From assembly GCA_951406725.2 (NCBI GenBank), contig OX597833.1, forward strand, positions 67,022,001 through 67,086,000: 64,000 nt of DNA, in the 5' to 3' direction. This document shows positions 2,176-53,087 of this stretch, piece by piece (the first letter of the stretch is position 1; each line of letters starts with the position of its first letter). Below the pieces are notes generated by a model, which saw nothing but the letters and a program-made list of their open reading frames with translations, was not told the DNA's origin and did no database searches. This stretch comes from Octopus vulgaris. Taxonomy: Eukaryota. Both the position numbers and the translations under genes were made by a program.

Positions 2176-2428
2176 ATGTGTTATGGGCCATTTCTACAAA
2201 TAATCAAATTAAGTTTTTAATATTTGGTCGTTTATACTATCATGTATAGTAAAGGAATTGTATTAGAAATGGAATGGAATGTCAGGAGTAATCATATTAT
2301 GATGGAGATGTTGCGAAATCTTTGGTTCGGCAGGATGTAGAGGAATTTTAAAACTTAAGACGTTAAATAGATTACGGACTAAAAATTTAACTAAAATTAT
2401 ATATACATACATACATGCATACATACCT

Positions 2429-2494
<66 letters not shown>

Positions 2495-2725
2495 CGTATA
2501 TATATATACTCACAAGGCTTTGGTCGGCCCGAGGCTGTAGTAGAAGACACTTGCCCAAGGTACCAGGCAGTGGAACTGATCGTGGAACTATGTGGTTGGT
2601 AAGCAAGCTACTTACCACACAGCCATTCCTGCGCCAGTGTCTATTACTTATATGTATATACATATTTCTTTCTTCCTAGTTATCTATCGATTTGCGTGTT
2701 TGTGAATGTATATATATATATATAT

Positions 2726-2786
<61 letters not shown>

Positions 2787-3038
2787 GGTATGTATGCATG
2801 TATGTATGTATATATAATTTTAGTTAAATTTTTAGTCCGTAATCTATTTAATGTCTTAAGTTTTAAAATTACTCTACATCCTGCCGAACCATAGATTTCA
2901 CAACATCTCCATCATAATATGATTACTCCTGATATTCCATTCCATTTCTAATACAATTCCTTTAATATGCATGCTAATATAAACGACCAAATATTAAAAA
3001 CTTAATTTGATTATGTGTAGAAATGGCCCATAACACAT
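2176..3038. repeat. Inverted repeat, ~290-bp arms
   Basis: 2176-2462 is the reverse complement of ~2729-3038 with scattered mismatches; ORF track gives the same peptide on both strands. Confidence 0.9.
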
Positions 3039-5073: not shown

Positions 5074-5285
5074 TAACCAACCTGACTGAAACCGCCTCTG
5101 ACACAGCAGTACAAATGTCTTGTTTTGTATAAGTTTTGTATAAAAATCTTCCACCAAACCTTAATCACAATTTATGTTCCTAACACCAGCTAAATAAATA
5201 TGTTATTTTACTAAATTCTTTGTTATATTTAAAATTAGTTGAAAGAAACACAGAGCATCTCAAATTAATTACAGTAAGGAAAGGG
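5074..5285. mobile_element. Truncated adjacent copy of the same piggyBac-type MITE
   Basis: Aligns by eye to ~5327-5538; keeps the right end AAAGGG-TTAA and lacks the left TIR. Confidence 0.75.
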
Positions 5286-5316
5286 TTAAAATATATAATA
5301 GAGAAACAATTCTTAA

Positions 5317-5538
5317 CCCTTTTGATACCAACCCGACTGAAACTGCCCCTGGCTCTGTAGTACAGATGCCTTGTTTTTATAAGTTTTGAATTAAAATCTT
5401 CCACCAAACCTTAGTCACAATTTATGTTCCTAACACTAGCTGAATGATAACTAAGTTATTTTACTAAATTCTGTGTTATATTTAGAATTAATTGAAAGAA
5501 ACACAGAGCATCTCAAAATAGATACGGTAACGAAAGGG
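5317..5538. mobile_element. piggyBac-type MITE
   Basis: TTAA on both sides; TIRs CCCTTTTGATACC / GGTAACGAAAGGG (11 of 13 matching). Confidence 0.8.
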
Positions 5539-5618
5539 TTAAATAAGTGGAGAAATTCCCTTCAGCAGCCAACTCAAACTCTCACACACATACACTGAAA
5601 CACACACACGCGTACACC

Positions 5619-5758: not shown

Positions 5759-6113
5759 ATACCTGTTTCTTCATTACCCACAAGGGGCTAAACACAGAGG
5801 GGACAAACAAGGACAGACAAACGGATTAAGTCGATTACATCGACCCCAGTGCTTAACTGGTACTTATTTAATCGACCCCGAAAAGATGAAAAGCAAAGTC
5901 GACCTCGGCGGAATTTGAATTCAGAACGTAACGGCAGACAAAATACCGCTAAGCATTTCGTCTGACGTACTAACGTTTCTGCCAGCTCGCCACCTTTAAA
6001 AGGATGAAAGGCAAAGTCGACCTCGGCGGAATTTGAACTCAGAACGTAAAGACAGACGAAGCACCTGTAAGCATTTCGCCCGGTGTGCTAACGTTTCTGC
6101 CGGCTCGCAGCCT
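5759..6113 (-). mobile_element. SINE family D (Nin/Deu-like central domain) with partial tandem duplication of its head
   Basis: Minus: GGCGAGCTGGCAGAAACGTTAG...GAATTCAAATTCCGCCGAGGTCGACTTTGCTTTTCATCTTTTCGGGGTCGATTAAATAAGTACCAG; 6001-6113 repeats ~5883-5993. Degenerate relatives near 8215-8340, 16440-16515, 62650-62770. Confidence 0.75.
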
Positions 6114-16302: not shown

Positions 16303-16853
16303 GTCACCATGACAACGCACAAGAAACGTAACTTACCTCAAGAACCTCTGGAAGCAGAAAGCAAACTCTGAGTAGTATCTTAGAAAAGACTGCTTTCAAA
16401 TTTTGGCGTAAGTCCAACAATTTCTTGATAGGGGTCTTATTGACTACAACGGAGCCAATATTCCACTGGTACTTAATTTATCGACCTCAAAAGCATGAAA
16501 GGCAAATTTCCACTTGTTGAGTGTCGTCCAGAACGTTTGTCAATACCGACATTTTTTCGGCCATCTCGGAAACGTCTGAACCAATCGTACACTTGTGTGG
16601 AGATCATACACTCCTCTCCATACACTTTCTGCAATTTTGCTTAGGCCTGTGAGCAGGTATCACCATGACAACTTCTCTGTAATGTTTAATGCGACAATCA
16701 CATGCTACACACCTTCCTTCCAAGTACTGCTGTGGAAGAAAGTGGTTGTGAGTTAGAACGTAAAAAACGTTGTGCGCATGCACGACAGAGCTCAAGATCA
16801 ACCTTTGCCAAGCGGTTTCACTTTGCGTGCTTTAGTTTCGTTACTATGGCAAC
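16303..16853. promoter_or_regulatory. Cluster of RFX X-box motifs
   Basis: GTCACCATGACAAC (16303-16316), ATCACCATGACAAC (16659-16672, one mismatch), GTTACTATGGCAAC (16840-16853); NRF1-like TGCGCATGCA at 16773. Confidence 0.5.
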
Positions 16854-45628: not shown

Positions 45629-47022
45629 GAAAGTGTCGAGGAATGAATGCTAAAAGGCGTTCTATAGAATGAGCGACAATGAATCATATAAGCCCCTGCT
45701 GCTATTTATTATTCGTTAATAGGCGGAGGAAAAGAATGATAACATTTATTTGATTTGATAAGAATATTCAAGTAGATTGATGTAGTTATTTCTGGTTTAG
45801 ATTCCAACATTAACGATTCTTCTCCACATTTTTATTCATTCACTCTCTTATTCAATCCGACAACTGATTGTGATTTAATTGAATATCAAAATTCGCAGAT
45901 TAATAATAGCTAAGCTATTTTTGCAGTTGATATTTTAAATCTAACATTTTTCTTTCTGCCAGAGAGGCGATAAAAATCTTCACTGTTTTCCCCCTTTTCA
46001 GTGAAAACTTATAAAGTATCGGTTAAAAGAAACGACGAATGATACTGAAGAGCTAAGTATTGTGATAGTGCCAACTGTTGAAAGAGTTTTATTAAAACCT
46101 ATGAAAATACTCACTGAATCTTGTTTATCGTTTTTTTTTCTTTTACTTGTTTTAGTCATTGGAATGATTGGCTATCACCTTAAAGAGTTTTGGCTAAACT
46201 AATCAGCCCCAATACTAATGTTATTTTCGACTAAACCCTCAAAGGTAGAGTCCAAACGTGGTAGCATTTCAAAAACCGAACAAAGTTAAAATAAAGCGTA
46301 AAACGAATTATGCAAGTGCTCCAGCTTGGCAGAGAAGAATTCAATTAATATAAGCACATGAAACGGTATTAGATTAGAATACTTTTGGATATGTTGTTTA
46401 TGATGTTTATACCAGCGTGAAATAGAAGTATTTGTAATATTTCGTATCCGAATATTCCTCAAAGACACATGTGTACTAAAGGTGTCGTAAAAATGTTGGG
46501 TTCTCTGGGGGTAAAACGAGATTATACCCCCAAACGATAATCAGTGATGTACTTATGACCTTTATTAGTTATGATTAATAACATAATATTGGTTTCAGCA
46601 TAAACGATTTCTCATGAAAATTCTTGCAAAACAAATTTATAAACGAATAAATCTTTGAGAAAATCCTGAAATAAAATTTGATATTAATGACTCTAATTTC
46701 TTAATAAATAAGAAGTTATTCACAATCTGTTCTATTATAGAATCGTTGGCATCGTGCAATAATTTACAGAAGAGATCTGAATATTTTACAGCATTTATCT
46801 CAATTATACTGCAGTTTTAAGGCAGGATAAGGGTGAAATGCTGCTGAAACAGTAGAAAGCTTGCTGTTGCCGGCTAATTATCTGTCTGTCTATCTGTCCA
46901 TATATCTGTCTATCTATCTGTCTGTCTATCTGTCTGCCAGTCTATCTGTCTGTTTGTCTCTCTCTATCTATCTCTCTATCTCTTTATCTCTTTATCTATC
47001 GCTCTATCTGTCTCTCTATCTG

Positions 47023-47908: not shown

Positions 47909-47966
<58 letters not shown>

Positions 47967-48686
47967 GTTTAAATATTTGTTGTGCAAGATTTTTTATGTG
48001 AAGTCGTGTGTTGAAACAGATATTGTTATATTTCGGAATGGTCATATTGCCAGTTTAGCCAATAAAAACACACGCACTATATATTTGGTGTTATTTTGCT
48101 TCAGTGATATTTATTTTTTACATTAATCTTAATCTTATTTCGGCCAAAGTTCTTTCGTCACACTCCTGTGACCGCATCAGTGGTCCTTTGTTTTCTTCTC
48201 ACTTACTTGTGTCTCTCCTTACTAACCGTCAGCCATTTTGTATTTCTATTGTATGTCTTCATTTGCGCATGCTTATATCTCTATGTGCGTCTATGTTTAT
48301 TTAGTGTGTGTGGGGGGGATGTCTGTAATATTTGTATCTTCTGGTTATATACATTCTTGTAATTTGTATTTTGTTTTTGTTGTTGTTGCTTTTGTTCTAA
48401 TTTTGTTCATGTGTTTACATCCACCCATTATTATCATTACATATGCTTGTATGTATGTATAACAACAATATTAGTAATAATAATAATAAATCTAATCGAG
48501 AAAAAAAAAAAAAAAGAATATACATATACATATATATATATATATATACATACACATACATATACATATATATATACACACATATATACACATATACATA
48601 TACATACACATATACATACACATAGATATTCATTTCTATTTCTTTAATTACCTGTGTATTTATTATGTTTGCAGGATCCACTATTG

Positions 48687-50462
48687 TCATATGTTGTGGT
48701 GTGCGCTATTGCTCCATTCTAGTTTTCTATTCAGGCTAGGTTTATTTTCTATTATATGTGTAGCTTCTGTAATTTGTCTAATTGTTGCATCTGTTCTATG
48801 TGTGGACAATATCTTAATCTCTATGTTATTGATTGATCCCCCGTGTTCTTGTTCGGCGTGTTGGTACAGAATCGATGAGCTTTTACCTTCCTTGAGTTGT
48901 CTCCAATGTTCATTCACCCGCTCACCAATGCTTCTTGCAGTTTCCCCTACGTATGTTACTGTCTTGTTACTGCATCGTCCCTCTATACATCTTATACTAT
49001 AGACCACATTTCTGGCTTTACAGTTCGTTTGTGGGCTAAATCTACATACAGTGCAATAGTTATCCGTACAGAGAGTTCTACTAAAAGGATAGGTTCTACC
49101 AATTATAGATCTGATAGGGTTGCCTGGCTTTTCAACAACCTTAATTCTTAGTTTAAGTTTATCTAGGGTCCTTCTAAAGCGGTACGCTAGTTCACCTCCA
49201 GGGGTGGTGTCAACGAACATGACACTCTGGTATTTATGGCTATCATACCAAGAGTTGGCCTTCCTTATTTTCTTTTTTGTCCTTTCTATAGTGTTCCATG
49301 ACTTGTTCCTATAGAGTGGGCAAATCCCATTCCTATCATTACATAATATATTATCAAATTTCTTCATGGCTCCTTTGTATACTCTGATCCTTTCTTTATG
49401 GCTGTAACCTGAGAACTGCATGCGGTGAATGAAATACTGTATGTGTCTCTTTAATTCTGTAGGCTCGCACATGCGTGACACATTTCTCATTATTCTGACG
49501 AGGTCTGCCATCAAAATATTGAATTTGGCATTGCCCGCAATGGCTGAGTTCCGGTGGATCAGGTATTTTGAGGCCATAGGTTTTGCATAGTATGAATGAA
49601 GGATTTGGGTTTTATTTTCACAATTTCTAGCCAGAGTTCAGTGTCTAGTACTGGTAGTCTATGGTTGGGGTGTTTAGTGGGGTAGTCTATTGTGACCTTA
49701 ATACTCTGGTGGATGGAGTTAGCTATTTGCTGGATGCTCTCCATAGTATTAGTTTCTATTACTATATCAACCGTACTCTCTTGTGGGGGTGCCTTTACTA
49801 CTATATTGATATCATCAACATAGCGAGAGTACATGTTTACGAGTACGGATTTCTGCAGTAGGCATTCTTTAAGCCTTCTGTCCCACCATACCATGAAGAG
49901 GTTGGCCACATCACCAGCGATACTAACACCGATGGCTGCCCCCTCGTCCTGGGCATATATTTTATTATTAAATTTAAATGTGTGGCCTTTTAGGGTAACT
50001 CTTATACTAGCTCCTAGTGCATGTGCGATCATTTTCTTTACCTGATGGACATTTGCGGGGCTCCGTATGGCTCTGGTCCATCCGCGCCATCTTTCTATAT
50101 GTGTCTTCCTAGCCATAGAAGTAATTGTAGGCGGTCTACCTCTTAAACATCTACTGGGGCAGAAACTACTAAGATTATGTTTATCTAAGTATTCACTATT
50201 ATATGTCAGTCTAAGTAGGAGGCCCAGTTCTTCTGTGTCGACATTACAGAACTCCACCTGGCTCTCGTTGATCATCTCCACGCACTTCTCCACTGCAAAA
50301 TCTACGTCAATCGATGGGTATAGGGATACCACATCCATGCTACCTACTATACATCCTGTCAAGTCACAAGTTTTGTTACAGTCACTGATCCTGCTTAGGA
50401 GATCTTCTGTGCTGTCACATACATCAGGTGACATCCTGATTATAGGGCGTATGATCATTGAG
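48687..50462 (-). pseudogene. Inverted second copy of the same Penelope-like ORF with a 1-nt frameshift
   Basis: ORFs 49559..50575(-) and 48687..49577(-) reproduce the + strand protein. The A5 run in GTGAAAAATAAAA is A4 in this copy (T run at 49615-49618), splitting the frame. Starts further 3' in the RT than the + copy. Confidence 0.92.
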
Positions 50463-50465
50463 TAG

Positions 50466-52373
50466 GAAGTAGATATCCCGGCACTGTATGGACTTCGCAA
50501 GGACCATAAAGGTTTTACTGACCCTATAGCAGGACCACCAACAAGACCAGTCTGTGGAGCGAATATCGCTAGCAATTACAGAATCTCCTACTTCCTCTCA
50601 ATGATCATACGCCCTATAATCAGGATGTCACCTGATGTATGTGACAGCACAGAAGATCTCCTAAGCAGGATCAGTGACTGTAACAAAACTTGTGACTTGA
50701 CAGGATGTATAGTAGGTAGCATGGATGTGGTATCCCTATACCCATCGATTGACGTAGATTTTGCAGTGGAGAAGTGCGTGGAGATGATCAACGAGAGCCA
50801 GGTGGAGTTCTGTAATGTCGACACAGAAGAACTGGGCCTCCTACTTAGACTGACATATAATAGTGAATACTTAGATAAACATAATCTTAGTAGTTTCTGC
50901 CCCAGTAGATGTTTAAGAGGTAGACCGCCTACAATTACTTCTATGGCTAGGAAGACACATATAGAAAGATGGCGCGGATGGACCAGAGCCATACGGAGCC
51001 CCGCAAATGTCCATCAGGTAAAGAAAATGATCGCACATGCACTAGGAGCTAGTATAAGAGTTACCCTAAAAGGCCACACATTTAAATTTAATAATAAAAT
51101 ATATGCCCAGGACGAGGGGGCAGCCATCGGTGTTAGTATCGCTGGTGATGTGGCCAACCTCTTCATGGTATGGTGGGACAGAAGGCTTAAAGAATGCCTA
51201 CTGCAGAAATCCGTACTCGTAAACATGTACTCTCGCTATGTTGATGATATCAATATAGTAGTAAAGGCACCCCCACAAGAGAGTACGGTTGATATAGTAA
51301 TAGAAACTAATACTATGGAGAGCATCCAGCAAATAGCTAACTCCATCCACCAGAGTATTAAGGTCACAATAGACTACCCCACTAAACACCCCAACCATAG
51401 ACTACCAGTACTAGACACTGAACTCTGGCTAGAAATTGTGAAAAATAAAACCCAAATCCTTCATTCATACTATGCAAAACCTATGGCCTCAAAATACCTG
51501 ATCCACCGGAACTCAGCCATTGCGGGCAATGCCAAATTCAATATTTTGATGGCAGACCTCGTCAGAATAATGAGAAATGTGTCACGCATGTGCGAGCCTA
51601 CAGAATTAAAGAGACACATACAGTATTTCATTCACCGCATGCAGTTCTCAGGTTACAGCCATAAAGAAAGGATCAGAGTATACAAAGGAGCCATGAAGAA
51701 ATTTGATAATATATTATGTAATGATAGGAATGGGATTTGCCCACTCTATAGGAACAAGTCATGGAACACTATAGAAAGGACAAAAAAGAAAATAAGGAAG
51801 GCCAACTCTTGGTATGATAGCCATAAATACCAGAGTGTCATGTTCGTTGACACCACCCCTGGAGGTGAACTAGCGTACCGCTTTAGAAGGACCCTAGATA
51901 AACTTAAACTAAGAATTAAGGTTGTTGAAAAGCCAGGCAACCCTATCAGATCTATAATTGGTAGAACCTATCCTTTTAGTAGAACTCTCTGTACGGATAA
52001 CTATTGCACTGTATGTAGATTTAGCCCACAAACGAACTGTAAAGCCAGAAATGTGGTCTATAGTATAAGATGTATAGAGGGACGATGCAGTAACAAGACA
52101 GTAACATACGTAGGGGAAACTGCAAGAAGCATTGGTGAGCGGGTGAATGAACATTGGAGACAACTCAAGGAAGGTAAAAGCTCATCGATTCTGTACCAAC
52201 ACGCCGAACAAGAACACGGGGGATCAATCAATAACATAGAGATTAAGATATTGTCCACACATAGAACAGATGCAACAATTAGACAAATTACAGAAGCTAC
52301 ACATATAATAGAAAATAAACCTAGCCTGAATAGAAAACTAGAATGGAGCAATAGCGCACACCACAACATATGA
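50466..52373 (+). CDS. Penelope-like retroelement ORF (reverse transcriptase + C-terminal GIY-YIG endonuclease), 5'-truncated, no internal stops
   Basis: Frame is open from 50466 (after TAG at 50463), i.e. 45 codons upstream of the listed ATG at 50601. RT motifs: LYGLRKDHK, PTRPVC, GSMDVVSLYPSI, QDEGAAIGVSIAGDVANLFM, YSRYVDD, LPVLDTEL. Cys linker CTDNYCTVC. GIY-YIG domain NVVYSIRC..C..YVGETARSIGERVNEH..H..H..RQITEA..LNRKLE. Confidence 0.96.
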   Translation, partial: EVDIPALYGLRKDHKGFTDPIAGPPTRPVCGANIASNYRISYFLSMIIRPIIRMSPDVCDSTEDLLSRISDCNKTCDLTGCIVGSMDVVSLYPSIDVDFAVEKCVEMINESQVEFCNVDTEELGLLLRLTYNSEYLDKHNLSSFCPSRCLRGRPPTITSMARKTHIERWRGWTRAIRSPANVHQVKKMIAHALGASIRVTLKGHTFKFNNKIYAQDEGAAIGVSIAGDVANLFMVWWDRRLKECLLQKSVLVNMYSRYVDDINIVVKAPPQESTVDIVIETNTMESIQQIANSIHQSIKVTIDYPTKHPNHRLPVLDTELWLEIVKNKTQILHSYYAKPMASKYLIHRNSAIAGNAKFNILMADLVRIMRNVSRMCEPTELKRHIQYFIHRMQFSGYSHKERIRVYKGAMKKFDNILCNDRNGICPLYRNKSWNTIERTKKKIRKANSWYDSHKYQSVMFVDTTPGGELAYRFRRTLDKLKLRIKVVEKPGNPIRSIIGRTYPFSRTLCTDNYCTVCRFSPQTNCKARNVVYSIRCIEGRCSNKTVTYVGETARSIGERVNEHWRQLKEGKSSSILYQHAEQEHGGSINNIEIKILSTHRTDATIRQITEATHIIENKPSLNRKLEWSNSAHHNI

Positions 52374-52874
52374 CAATAGTGGATCCTGCAAACATAATAA
52401 ATACACAGGTAATTAAAGAAATAGAAATGAATATCTATGTGTATGTATATGTGTATGTATATGTATATGTGTATATATGTGTGTGTATATATATATGTAT
52501 ATGTATGTGTATGTATATATATATATATATATGTATATGTATATTCTTTTTTTTTTTTTTTTCTCGATTAGATTTATTATTATTATTACTAATATTGTTG
52601 TTATACATACATACAAGCATATGTAATGATAATAATGGGTGGATGTAAACACATGAACAAAATTAGAACAAAAGCAACAACAACAAAAACAAAATACAAA
52701 TTACAAGAATGTATATAACCAGAAGATACAAATATTACAGACATCCCCCCCACACACTAAATAAACATAGACGCACATAGAGATATAAGCATACGCAAAT
52801 GAAGACATACAATAGAAATACAAAATGGCTGACGGTTAGTAAGGAGAGACACAAGTAAGTGAGAAGAAAACAAA

Positions 52875-53037
52875 GGACCACTGATGCGGTCACAGGAGTG
52901 TGACGAAAGAACTTTGGCCGAAATAAGATTAAGATTAATGTAAAAAATAAATATCACTGAAGCAAAATAACACCAAATATATAGTGCGTGTGTTTTTATT
53001 GGCTAAACTGGCAATATGACCATTCCGAAATATAACA

Positions 53038-53041
<4 letters not shown>
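52875..53041 (+). ncRNA. Hammerhead-like motif(s) with variant core in the PLE 3' UTR (mirrored at ~48020-48185 on -)
   Basis: CUGAUGC (52881) followed by hairpin GUCACA-GGAG-UGUGAC then GAAA, or alternatively GGUCA/UGGCC then GAAA at 52920. A second CUGAAGC (~52957) and GAA-AUAU-AACA-AUAU-(C) at the terminus. Core has C where canonical CUGANGA has A; helices I/III uncertain. Confidence 0.4.

Positions 53042-53087
<46 letters not shown>

What the first reader, a model, noticed from the sequence alone, without database searches (positions are those of the whole stretch)
47966..53041. Very young Penelope-like element as a 5-kb near-perfect palindrome of two coding copies in (TA)n
Seen: two ~2.45-kb arms in head-to-head orientation. 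By eye they differ only by one homopolymer indel, one substitution (48268 vs 52793) and microsatellite lengths; (TA)n lies on both sides and the + ORF has no stops. Known: PLEs encode RT + GIY-YIG and often carry an inverted, 5'-truncated partial copy. Inference: here the inverted part spans most of the ORF rather than only the terminal repeat, the family is probably still active, and any read-through transcript would fold into ~2.4 kb of dsRNA (siRNA source or ADAR substrate).
Basis: partly seen in the sequence, partly recalled or inferred. Interest (0 to 1): 0.8.

Follow-up and report, generated by a model that had tools for sequence, protein, structure and literature searches.

The report
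Head-to-head Penelope retroelement insertion in octopus
A young Penelope-type jumping gene, likely in an octopus genome, sits as two truncated copies joined head to head in a 5-kb mirror repeat; this arrangement is already described for such elements, but here the arms are long and their two different ends suggest it was likely copied from both DNA strands of the target in one event.

Summary
The palindrome is in the sequence: arms 48020-50472 and 50588-53041 differ by 1 substitution and 5 small indels around a 115-nt spacer. It is a Penelope-like element (PLE): telomerase-like RT, C-terminal GIY-YIG nuclease, hammerhead-like motif, (TA)n target, 98% identical to an Octopus vulgaris protein. 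Both copies are 5'-truncated (about 40% of the ORF missing) and the left one is frameshifted as assembled, so neither is autonomous. New here: only the left arm carries a 54-nt PLE 'tail', and an 11-15-nt candidate target duplication frames the unit, pointing to one real insertion. A 5'-truncated inverted copy plus a one-sided tail is the published typical PLE layout; 6 of 63 related loci show such inverted junctions, 2 inside the ORF. siRNAs from long Penelope inverted repeats are published too. Best mechanism (inferred): priming from both target strands at the two RT start sites, then head-to-head joining. No read spans the junction; activity and dsRNA are untested. Side finding: the RT lineage has a conserved ~70-aa fingers insertion that fits none of the named C-terminal-nuclease clades I could compare. 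Ordinary architecture, modest interest.

The parts
47912..47965 (.). Left (TA)n target; its last 11 nt (47955-47965, ATATATATGTA) are the left copy of the candidate target-site duplication
   Evidence: Sequence; direct repeat of 11-15 nt with the right flank
47966..48019 (-). 54-nt PLE 'tail', present on the left arm only; A+C rich (36 of 54); continues the frame opened by the ATG at 48045 (codons 10-27)
   Evidence: a contig of run X10 runs from the arm into it while another X10 contig ends at 48020 in (TA)n; relic at 46578-46645 ends at the same base
48020..50472 (-). Left arm: more strongly 5'-truncated copy, sense on minus strand
48141..48188 (-). Hammerhead-like motif in the 3' region of the left copy (core CUGAUGC...GAAA, A9 replaced by C)
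   Evidence: Own descriptor; fold (made on the right-arm copy); no Rfam hit
48687..50472 (-). ORF remnant of the left copy, frameshifted at an A7 run near 49612-49619
   Evidence: most contigs in the four runs carry one more base here
50463..50473 (.). Head-to-head junction: 1-nt microhomology at 50472 and a 1-nt insertion at 50463
   Evidence: true upstream sequence of the family seen as loose end at 50472 in X18 and in P0001
50473..50587 (+). 115-nt spacer, coding sequence present only in the right copy
50472..52373 (+). Open 633-codon C-terminal part of the PLE ORF: RT motif A D85, ~70-aa fingers insertion (about residues 112-178), motif B' Q213, YVDD 256-259, thumb, C-x4-CxxC-x7-C linker (507-523), GIY-YIG nuclease (526-623) with CCHH-type residues
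50588..53041 (+). Right arm, ends at the tail-less 3' end
52873..52920 (+). Hammerhead-like motif of the right copy
53016..53041 (+). ATG and first ~9 codons of the likely ORF start, repeated at the 3' end as in a pseudo-LTR
   Evidence: frame weakly matches N-termini of relatives (15 of 1000 shuffles as good); inference
53042..53084 (.). Right (TA)n target; first 11 nt (53042-53052) are the right copy of the candidate target-site duplication
46578..46645 (+). Old relic of the same 3' end plus tail (78% identical, 68 nt), stops at the same base as the tail

Best explanation
This is a young Penelope-like retroelement arranged as two 5'-truncated copies head to head inside a (TA)n tract, likely made in a single insertion in which both cut DNA strands primed reverse transcription and the two products were then likely joined at their growing ends. 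Shown: the arms, the 115-nt spacer, the RT and GIY-YIG domains, two different 3' ends 54 nt apart that both recur in the family. Inferred: the enzyme (supplied by a full-length copy elsewhere) nicked both strands of (TA)n 11-15 nt apart; one strand primed at the inner RT start site (right arm, no tail), the other at the outer start site (left arm, with tail); after about 2.5 kb the leading cDNA (2570 nt) switched template onto the lagging cDNA (2507 nt) with 1 nt of microhomology and a small slip, and repair filled in both strands. The locus itself is a dead, non-autonomous product. I put the identity as one real PLE insertion at about 0.88 and this particular route at about 0.5.
For: Arms and junction. 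PLE identity: 229 homologues, best 98% to an O. vulgaris protein; model matches telomerase and group II RTs (Z 13.5) and the I-TevI catalytic domain (Z 10.3, rmsd 2.0, 88 of 92 aligned). Both end types are family features: X10 has one contig running into the tail and one ending at 48020 in (TA)n with another flank; the relic at 46578-46645 ends at the tail's last base. Candidate duplication ATATATATGTA on both sides, sharing the G interruption; published PLE duplications are 8-10 bp (PMC3846280). Frangieh et al. 2024: a purified PLE protein cuts and extends both strands, is predicted to be a dimer, and starts RT at two sites whose interval is the tail. The tail sits on the arm that lacks the spacer, which a plain fold-back of the target-primed right cDNA cannot produce (inference). 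6 of 63 related loci have an inverted piece at the 5' truncation point; 2 lie inside the ORF with spacers of about 225 and 157 nt.
Against: No listed contig spans the junction or links arm to flank (only the longest pieces are shown and (TA)n breaks contigs), so the locus is not independently verified. The duplication lies in a microsatellite: 19 of 159 tract starts in the window have such a GTA interruption by chance. Short spacers are equally what fold-back self-priming gives, which Arkhipova et al. 2013 favour, and Craig et al. 2021 ascribe the tail to nuclease resolution. The in vitro data come from a different clade (Poseidon) and did not show head-to-head joining. The tail here (54 nt) is longer than the usual 30-40 nt. 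In L050 the arms match for only 36 nt.
Confidence: 0.5

Rival explanations
1. Real single PLE insertion, but made by fold-back self-priming: one strand (cDNA, or an antisense RNA as Arkhipova et al. propose) folded on itself over a 115-nt loop and was copied back, and the tail was later trimmed from one end by the nuclease.
For: Short spacers here (115 nt) and in L050, L062; arms almost identical; published model for head-to-head junctions and for the tail.
Against: Only 1 nt of microhomology and no favourable hairpin at the cDNA end (z 0.53); the tail is on the copied-back arm, so an extra trimming step is needed; in vitro the tail equals the interval between two RT start sites.
Confidence: 0.3
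2. Assembly artefact: a fold-back chimeric long read or a mis-join of two loci of a high-copy family.
For: No spanning read seen; 4 of 5 indels are in homopolymers or microsatellites, as consensus errors are; PLE inverted structures are known to trouble assemblies.
Against: A fold-back read mirrors the flank and cannot add a family-specific tail; the left flank is real low-depth DNA in X4 and X18; the junction is not inside shared sequence and has its own 1-nt insertion; a candidate target duplication frames the unit; other opposite-strand joints occur in the family (2 of the 15 listed joints in X4 besides the colinear one).
Confidence: 0.1
3. Two separate events: a second copy inserted at, or a later repair duplicated sequence onto, the 5' end of an existing truncated copy.
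For: The arms differ in 3' end and at 1 substitution; the family is numerous.
Against: The junction is not in (TA)n and carries no 3' end; one duplication frames the whole unit; truncation points lie 115 nt apart although most family depth is at the 3' end.
Confidence: 0.1

Closest known systems
Canonical EN+ PLE insertion layout (Craig et al. 2021 Fig. 2; Pen2a_Av of Adineta vaga, Arkhipova et al. 2013)
   Same: Inverted 5'-truncated copy joined at the 5' end, head-to-head; tail on one end only; 3' repeat containing the first codons of the ORF, extended by the tail; short target duplication; hammerhead in the 3' repeat.
   Different: No direct 5' pLTR and no full copy; the inverted arm is 2.45 kb (966 nt in Penelope-13_HM, supplement row; 181 bp in Pen2a) and nearly as long as its partner; tail 54 nt rather than 30-40; no palindrome at the junction.
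Nematis clade PLEs
   Same: C-terminal GIY-YIG with short C-x(3-4)-CxxC-x(7-8)-C linker and internal cysteines; similar thumb-linker stretch (compared by eye with Figs S2, S7 text).
   Different: DKS(G) instead of DKG; motif A to B' distance 128 aa against about 60 in the C. remanei Nematis row of Fig. S1; ORF about 1020-1110 aa.
Neptune, Naiad and Hydra PLEs
   Same: (TA)n or microsatellite targeting and a cysteine linker; Naiad and Hydra families are listed for Octopus.
   Different: Neptune has a long linker; Naiad has the nuclease N-terminal and lacks canonical hammerheads; Hydra has DKT, a CxCx5C linker, no CCHH and is under 3 kb.
Penelope of Drosophila virilis in transgenic D. melanogaster
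   Same: Rearranged copies with long inverted repeats; siRNAs match the inverted regions.
   Different: No small-RNA or transcript evidence here; different clade.
L1 twin priming (recalled, from no call; search found no paper tying it to Penelope)
   Same: Second target strand primes a second cDNA, giving an inversion at the 5' end.
   Different: L1 pieces do not overlap; here both arms begin at the 3' end and duplicate the same 2.45 kb.

Membership tests
Penelope-like elements, EN+ | Telomerase-related RT | tested here: met
   Motifs A, B', YVDD invariant in A1; top Foldseek hit Candida telomerase E 4e-7; VIA Z 13.5 tied between telomerase and group II RT. Pfam RVT_1 hit is below its cut-off.
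Penelope-like elements, EN+ | GIY-YIG nuclease in the same ORF | tested here: met
   Residues 526-623 match I-TevI, Z 10.3, rmsd 2.0; Pfam GIY-YIG E 0.002, below cut-off.
Penelope-like elements, EN+ | CCHH motif with two cysteines inside GIY-YIG | tested here: met
   C534 invariant; C539, H561, H577, H582 nearly invariant in A1.
Penelope-like elements, EN+ | Inverted 5'-truncated copy and one-sided tail | tested here: met
Penelope-like elements, EN+ | Hammerhead ribozyme in the pLTR | tested here: inconclusive
   Relaxed descriptor hits both arms, 0 of 2000 resamples of the 3' region; 5 of 25 relatives have a strict sense-strand hit 132-230 nt past the match, 0 antisense. But A9 is C, Rfam finds nothing, fold z -1.33; cleavage untested.
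Penelope-like elements, EN+ | Direct pLTR at the 5' end / partial tandem | not testable with these tools
   Both copies are truncated and no genome is held; only the ATG in the 3' repeat hints at it.
Penelope-like elements, EN+ | Target-site duplication | tested here: inconclusive
   11-15-nt direct repeat; background 19 of 159; no empty allele seen.
Nematis clade | Short CX2-5CxxC linker before a C-terminal nuclease | tested here: met
   C507-x4-C512xxC515-x7-C523 invariant in A1; Fig. S2 rows.
Nematis clade | DKG motif | tested here: not met
   Region is missing in the window; P0001 has TDKSG; among 100 homologues with both RT motifs the pattern gave TDKSx 51 times and DKG never, 33 had no match.
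Nematis clade | No insertion in fingers (canonical A-B' distance about 60 aa) | tested here: not met
   128 aa here; 126-132 in 100 of 120 homologues, 117-159 in 163 of 265; about 58-60 counted by eye in Fig. S1 rows.
Nematis clade | Placement in the clade by RT phylogeny | not tested
   No named reference proteins were available as tool-held sequences.
Neptune clade | Long linker (about 30 aa between CxxC and the next C) | tested here: not met
   7 residues here against Fig. S2 rows.
Hydra clade | DKT, CxCx5C linker, no CCHH | tested here: not met
Naiad/Chlamys | N-terminal nuclease | tested here: not met
   Nuclease is C-terminal.

The most novel reading that the evidence does not exclude
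The element belongs to a large, unnamed lineage of aquatic-invertebrate PLEs that joins a Nematis-type C-terminal nuclease to an RT with a conserved, folded ~70-aa fingers insertion longer than telomerase's IFD, and its young octopus copies record a polarity rule (tail always on the lagging, spacer-less arm) that would show in vivo that PLEs prime from both target strands at their two RT start sites and join the cDNAs head to head.
Probability: 0.3. Interest if true: 0.6.

Novelty: new member of a known kind. Interest (0 to 1): 0.35.

Why it matters
As a locus it is ordinary PLE anatomy with long arms. Its value is as a clean specimen: how PLE inverted repeats and tails form is stated as open in the papers read, and a fresh insertion with both ends, junction and candidate duplication intact gives a countable prediction (which arm bears the tail) that a survey of young octopus copies can test; Bonar et al. 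2026 list 329 recently active insertions in 30 Penelope families in O. vulgaris. If transcribed through, it would give ~2.45 kb of near-perfect duplex in an animal group noted for heavy A-to-I editing (recalled), but that is untested. The fingers insertion, if its lineage is unnamed, would qualify the statement that canonical C-terminal-nuclease PLEs lack an IFD.

Tried and rejected
Whole-genome search for a full-length master, copy counts or empty sites: no genome held. Expression: no RNA holder listed on record; X1 is only guessed to be RNA. Junction verification: none of the listed pieces bridges 50463-50473; the 50438/50620 'opposite strands' joint in X10 and X18 is just the normal colinear element; 15,928 pieces and 11 joints were not shown, so this says nothing either way. 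A>G/T>C differences as RNA editing: rejected, DNA runs show them too. Contig depth as copy number: not used beyond noting the steep 3' bias (X4: 39 in the flank, about 2.0 million at 48040-48139, about 2,000 at 50540-50620). Host gene around the element: 140 of 154 complexity-filtered frames (of 757 of 45 aa or more) scanned with Pfam gave 3 hits, none a convincing host exon; short exons would be missed. Rfam: only microsatellite-driven miRNA-type matches below gathering score. Stem-loop at the RT start region: -1.9 kcal/mol, z 0.57, not significant. Stable hairpin at the cDNA end: none. PDB sequence search gave only weak bacterial RT hits; NCBIfam only weak RT hits. Atlas searches gave unnamed RT clusters, no clade name. 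A nuclease-region search returned 19 unnamed close relatives, no named Nematis reference. Literature searches for a named clade with this insertion and for twin priming in Penelope found none; Arkhipova 2006 and Repbase were not seen, and protein files of the Craig supplement were not found by motif search, so they may already hold this lineage. Earlier-finding look-ups by sequence, place and full keyword set were empty.
Full report
Observation. The window is microsatellite-rich animal DNA. Aligning the two halves gives arms 48020-50472 and 50588-53041, with 1 substitution and 5 indels in about 2450 nt, and a 115-nt spacer. The + frame 50466-52373 is open. The left arm carries 54 more bases (47966-48019) before its (TA)n tract.

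What it encodes. The 635-aa frame has 229 homologues among 5101 candidates; the best is an Octopus vulgaris protein, 98% identical over 87% of the query, so the host is likely O. vulgaris or a close relative. Pfam RVT_1 and GIY-YIG hits are below cut-off, but the AlphaFold model (mean pLDDT 81) matches telomerase and group II intron RTs and the I-TevI nuclease domain (Z 10.3). P0001 and a loose end in run X18 show that the family continues upstream of 50472, so the right copy is truncated there; relatives of 1020-1110 aa have 373-440 residues before this point. The left copy begins 115 nt further downstream and is frameshifted at an A7 run; contigs with one more base make up 97% of the depth in X4, 93% in X18, all in X10 and 10.5 of 19 in X1, so A7 is a private mutation or a consensus error. 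Neither copy can be autonomous.

Ends and target. Run X10, which does not cover the unique flank, has one contig passing from the arm into the 54-nt extension (45 letters on the tail side, 26 on the arm side) and another ending at 48020 in (TA)n with a different flank: both end types exist in the family. A 78% relic at 46578-46645 ends at the last base of the extension. An ATG at 53016/48045 opens a frame that the right arm stops after about 9 codons and the tail extends to 27; it weakly resembles N-termini of 53 long relatives (15 of 1000 shuffles as good; a stop-free frame alone arises in 824 of 5000 shuffles). This parallels Pen2a_Av, where the pLTR holds 12 codons and the tail extends it to 22 (PMC3846280 passages). 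With the element at 47966-53041, ATATATATGTA stands directly on both sides (11-15 nt; background 19 of 159 tract starts). A hammerhead-like motif lies in both 3' regions: relaxed descriptor, 0 of 2000 resamples, one unrelated hit elsewhere in the window, strict hits in 5 of 25 relatives, all sense. Most family depth has C at the cleavage position where this copy has U (48147 row). Against: A9 is C and Rfam gives no hit.

Youth. One substitution in 2450 nt gives about 57 kyr (95% 1.4-316 kyr) at the rate of 0.0036 per site per Myr quoted in Bonar et al. 2026 (passages); this fails if the arms were homogenised, cross-polished or came from different RNAs. Independently, 7 of 8 listed X1 pieces and a 1040-nt X10 piece have no substitution against the arm. 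A young subfamily is therefore shown; present activity is not.

Is it real? No listed contig spans the junction, so this is not proven. A fold-back read would mirror the flank and could not add a family-specific tail; the left flank is low-depth DNA in X4 and X18; the junction has 1 nt of microhomology and a non-homopolymer insertion 9 nt away; a candidate duplication frames the unit. I put artefact at 0.1.

How common? Craig et al. 2021 (abstract, sections 3, 6, 11, 12, 15, 20, passages, supplement rows and parts 54, 57, 58) describe an inverted 5'-truncated copy at the 5' end and a one-sided 30-40-bp tail as typical. Arkhipova et al. 2013 (passages and Discussion) call head-to-head the most frequent form and propose self-priming. 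PMC3681739 (passages) reports Penelope copies with long inverted repeats whose siRNAs match the inverted parts. Of 80 related metagenome loci I tested the 63 closest (L001-L062, L080): 12 had an inverted match of 30 nt or more; 5 are local hairpins, 1 (L058) is an insert with inverted ends, and 6 have an inverted piece next to the 5' truncation point. In L050 and L062 the junction is inside the ORF with spacers of about 225 and 157 nt; the matching arm is only 36 nt in L050 and 59 nt, up to the contig start, in L062. The layout is thus habitual; the length of the arms is what stands out.

Mechanism. Frangieh et al. 2024 (first two of four parts of the text) show a PLE protein cutting and extending both strands of AT-rich DNA, predicted as a dimer, with two RT start sites bounding the tail. 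Here each arm's 3' end abuts (TA)n, one at each start site, total lengths 2570 and 2507 nt. I infer two primings and a switch of the leading cDNA onto the lagging one. A plain fold-back of the target-primed right cDNA cannot give the copied arm a tail its template lacks; it needs a trimming step, which Craig et al. do suggest, so this rival keeps 0.3. All of this paragraph beyond the lengths and ends is inference.

dsRNA. No host exon was found and no transcript is shown; the idea is reasonable, has precedent, and is untested.

Lineage. The nuclease and linker look Nematis-like, but the RT has DKS(G) and 128 aa between motifs A and B', 126-132 in 100 of 120 homologues, against 56-58 in distant RTs from the same scan and about 58-60 for canonical PLEs and about 115 for human TERT counted by eye in Fig. 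S1. The insertion has invariant residues (E120, L123, G150, P153, R166) and is mostly confidently folded. The profile finds 2110 representatives at E 1e-30 or better (only the best 150 were inspected); named members come from octopus, a sea cucumber and a jellyfish. Craig et al. note sporadic IFD-like regions in Coprina and Arkhipova et al. a short cysteine insert in two rotifer families, so such insertions are not unheard of. Searches found no named clade for it, but I built no tree with references and could not see Repbase or Arkhipova 2006. Cervera and de la Pena 2014 (passages) and the 2026 retrozyme preprint (passages) were read for hammerhead context only.

Verdict. Real with probability about 0.88, a PLE beyond doubt, architecture known; new member of a known kind; interest 0.35, with the tail-polarity test and the RT lineage as the leads worth keeping.

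Noticed in passing
window 50805-51005 (+), and homologues in A1: Conserved ~70-aa insertion between RT motifs A and B' (distance 126-132 aa in 100 of 120 homologues) with DKS(G) and a Nematis-type linker; fits no named C-terminal-nuclease clade in Craig et al. 2021 figures.
   Followed up: partly
window 46578-46645 (+): Old relic of the same element's 3' end and tail, 78% identical, 1.3 kb left of the palindrome.
   Followed up: yes
window 2176-2492 and 2722-3038: Older 317-nt inverted repeat (92%) whose centre holds (CA)n/(TA)n and a piece of a common dispersed repeat (SINE-like, recalled); looks like a decayed fold-back or MITE-like element.
   Followed up: no
window 16476-16640 (-): Mos1/mariner transposase HTH remnant (Pfam HTH_48, E 3e-5).
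   Followed up: no
window 48045 and 48244: Many contigs of X4 and X1 leave the arm exactly at 48045, the A of the putative start codon, suggesting subfamilies or structures with other sequence upstream of the ATG; an X1 contig flips strand at 48244, another inverted junction inside the 3' repeat.
   Followed up: no
L002 1-936 and 5118-6053: Relative with a 1632-aa frame and 936-nt direct terminal repeats containing 105-nt tandem units.
   Followed up: no
L063-L065, L067, L069, L073-L079: Freshwater-metagenome RT frames up to 1754 aa with short A-B' distance (56-58) and no cysteine linker match; possibly nuclease-less PLEs.
   Followed up: no
window 5076-5543 and 5881-6108: Two-copy tandem repeats of 253 and 118 nt (87% and 85%), likely duplicated dispersed repeats.
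   Followed up: no
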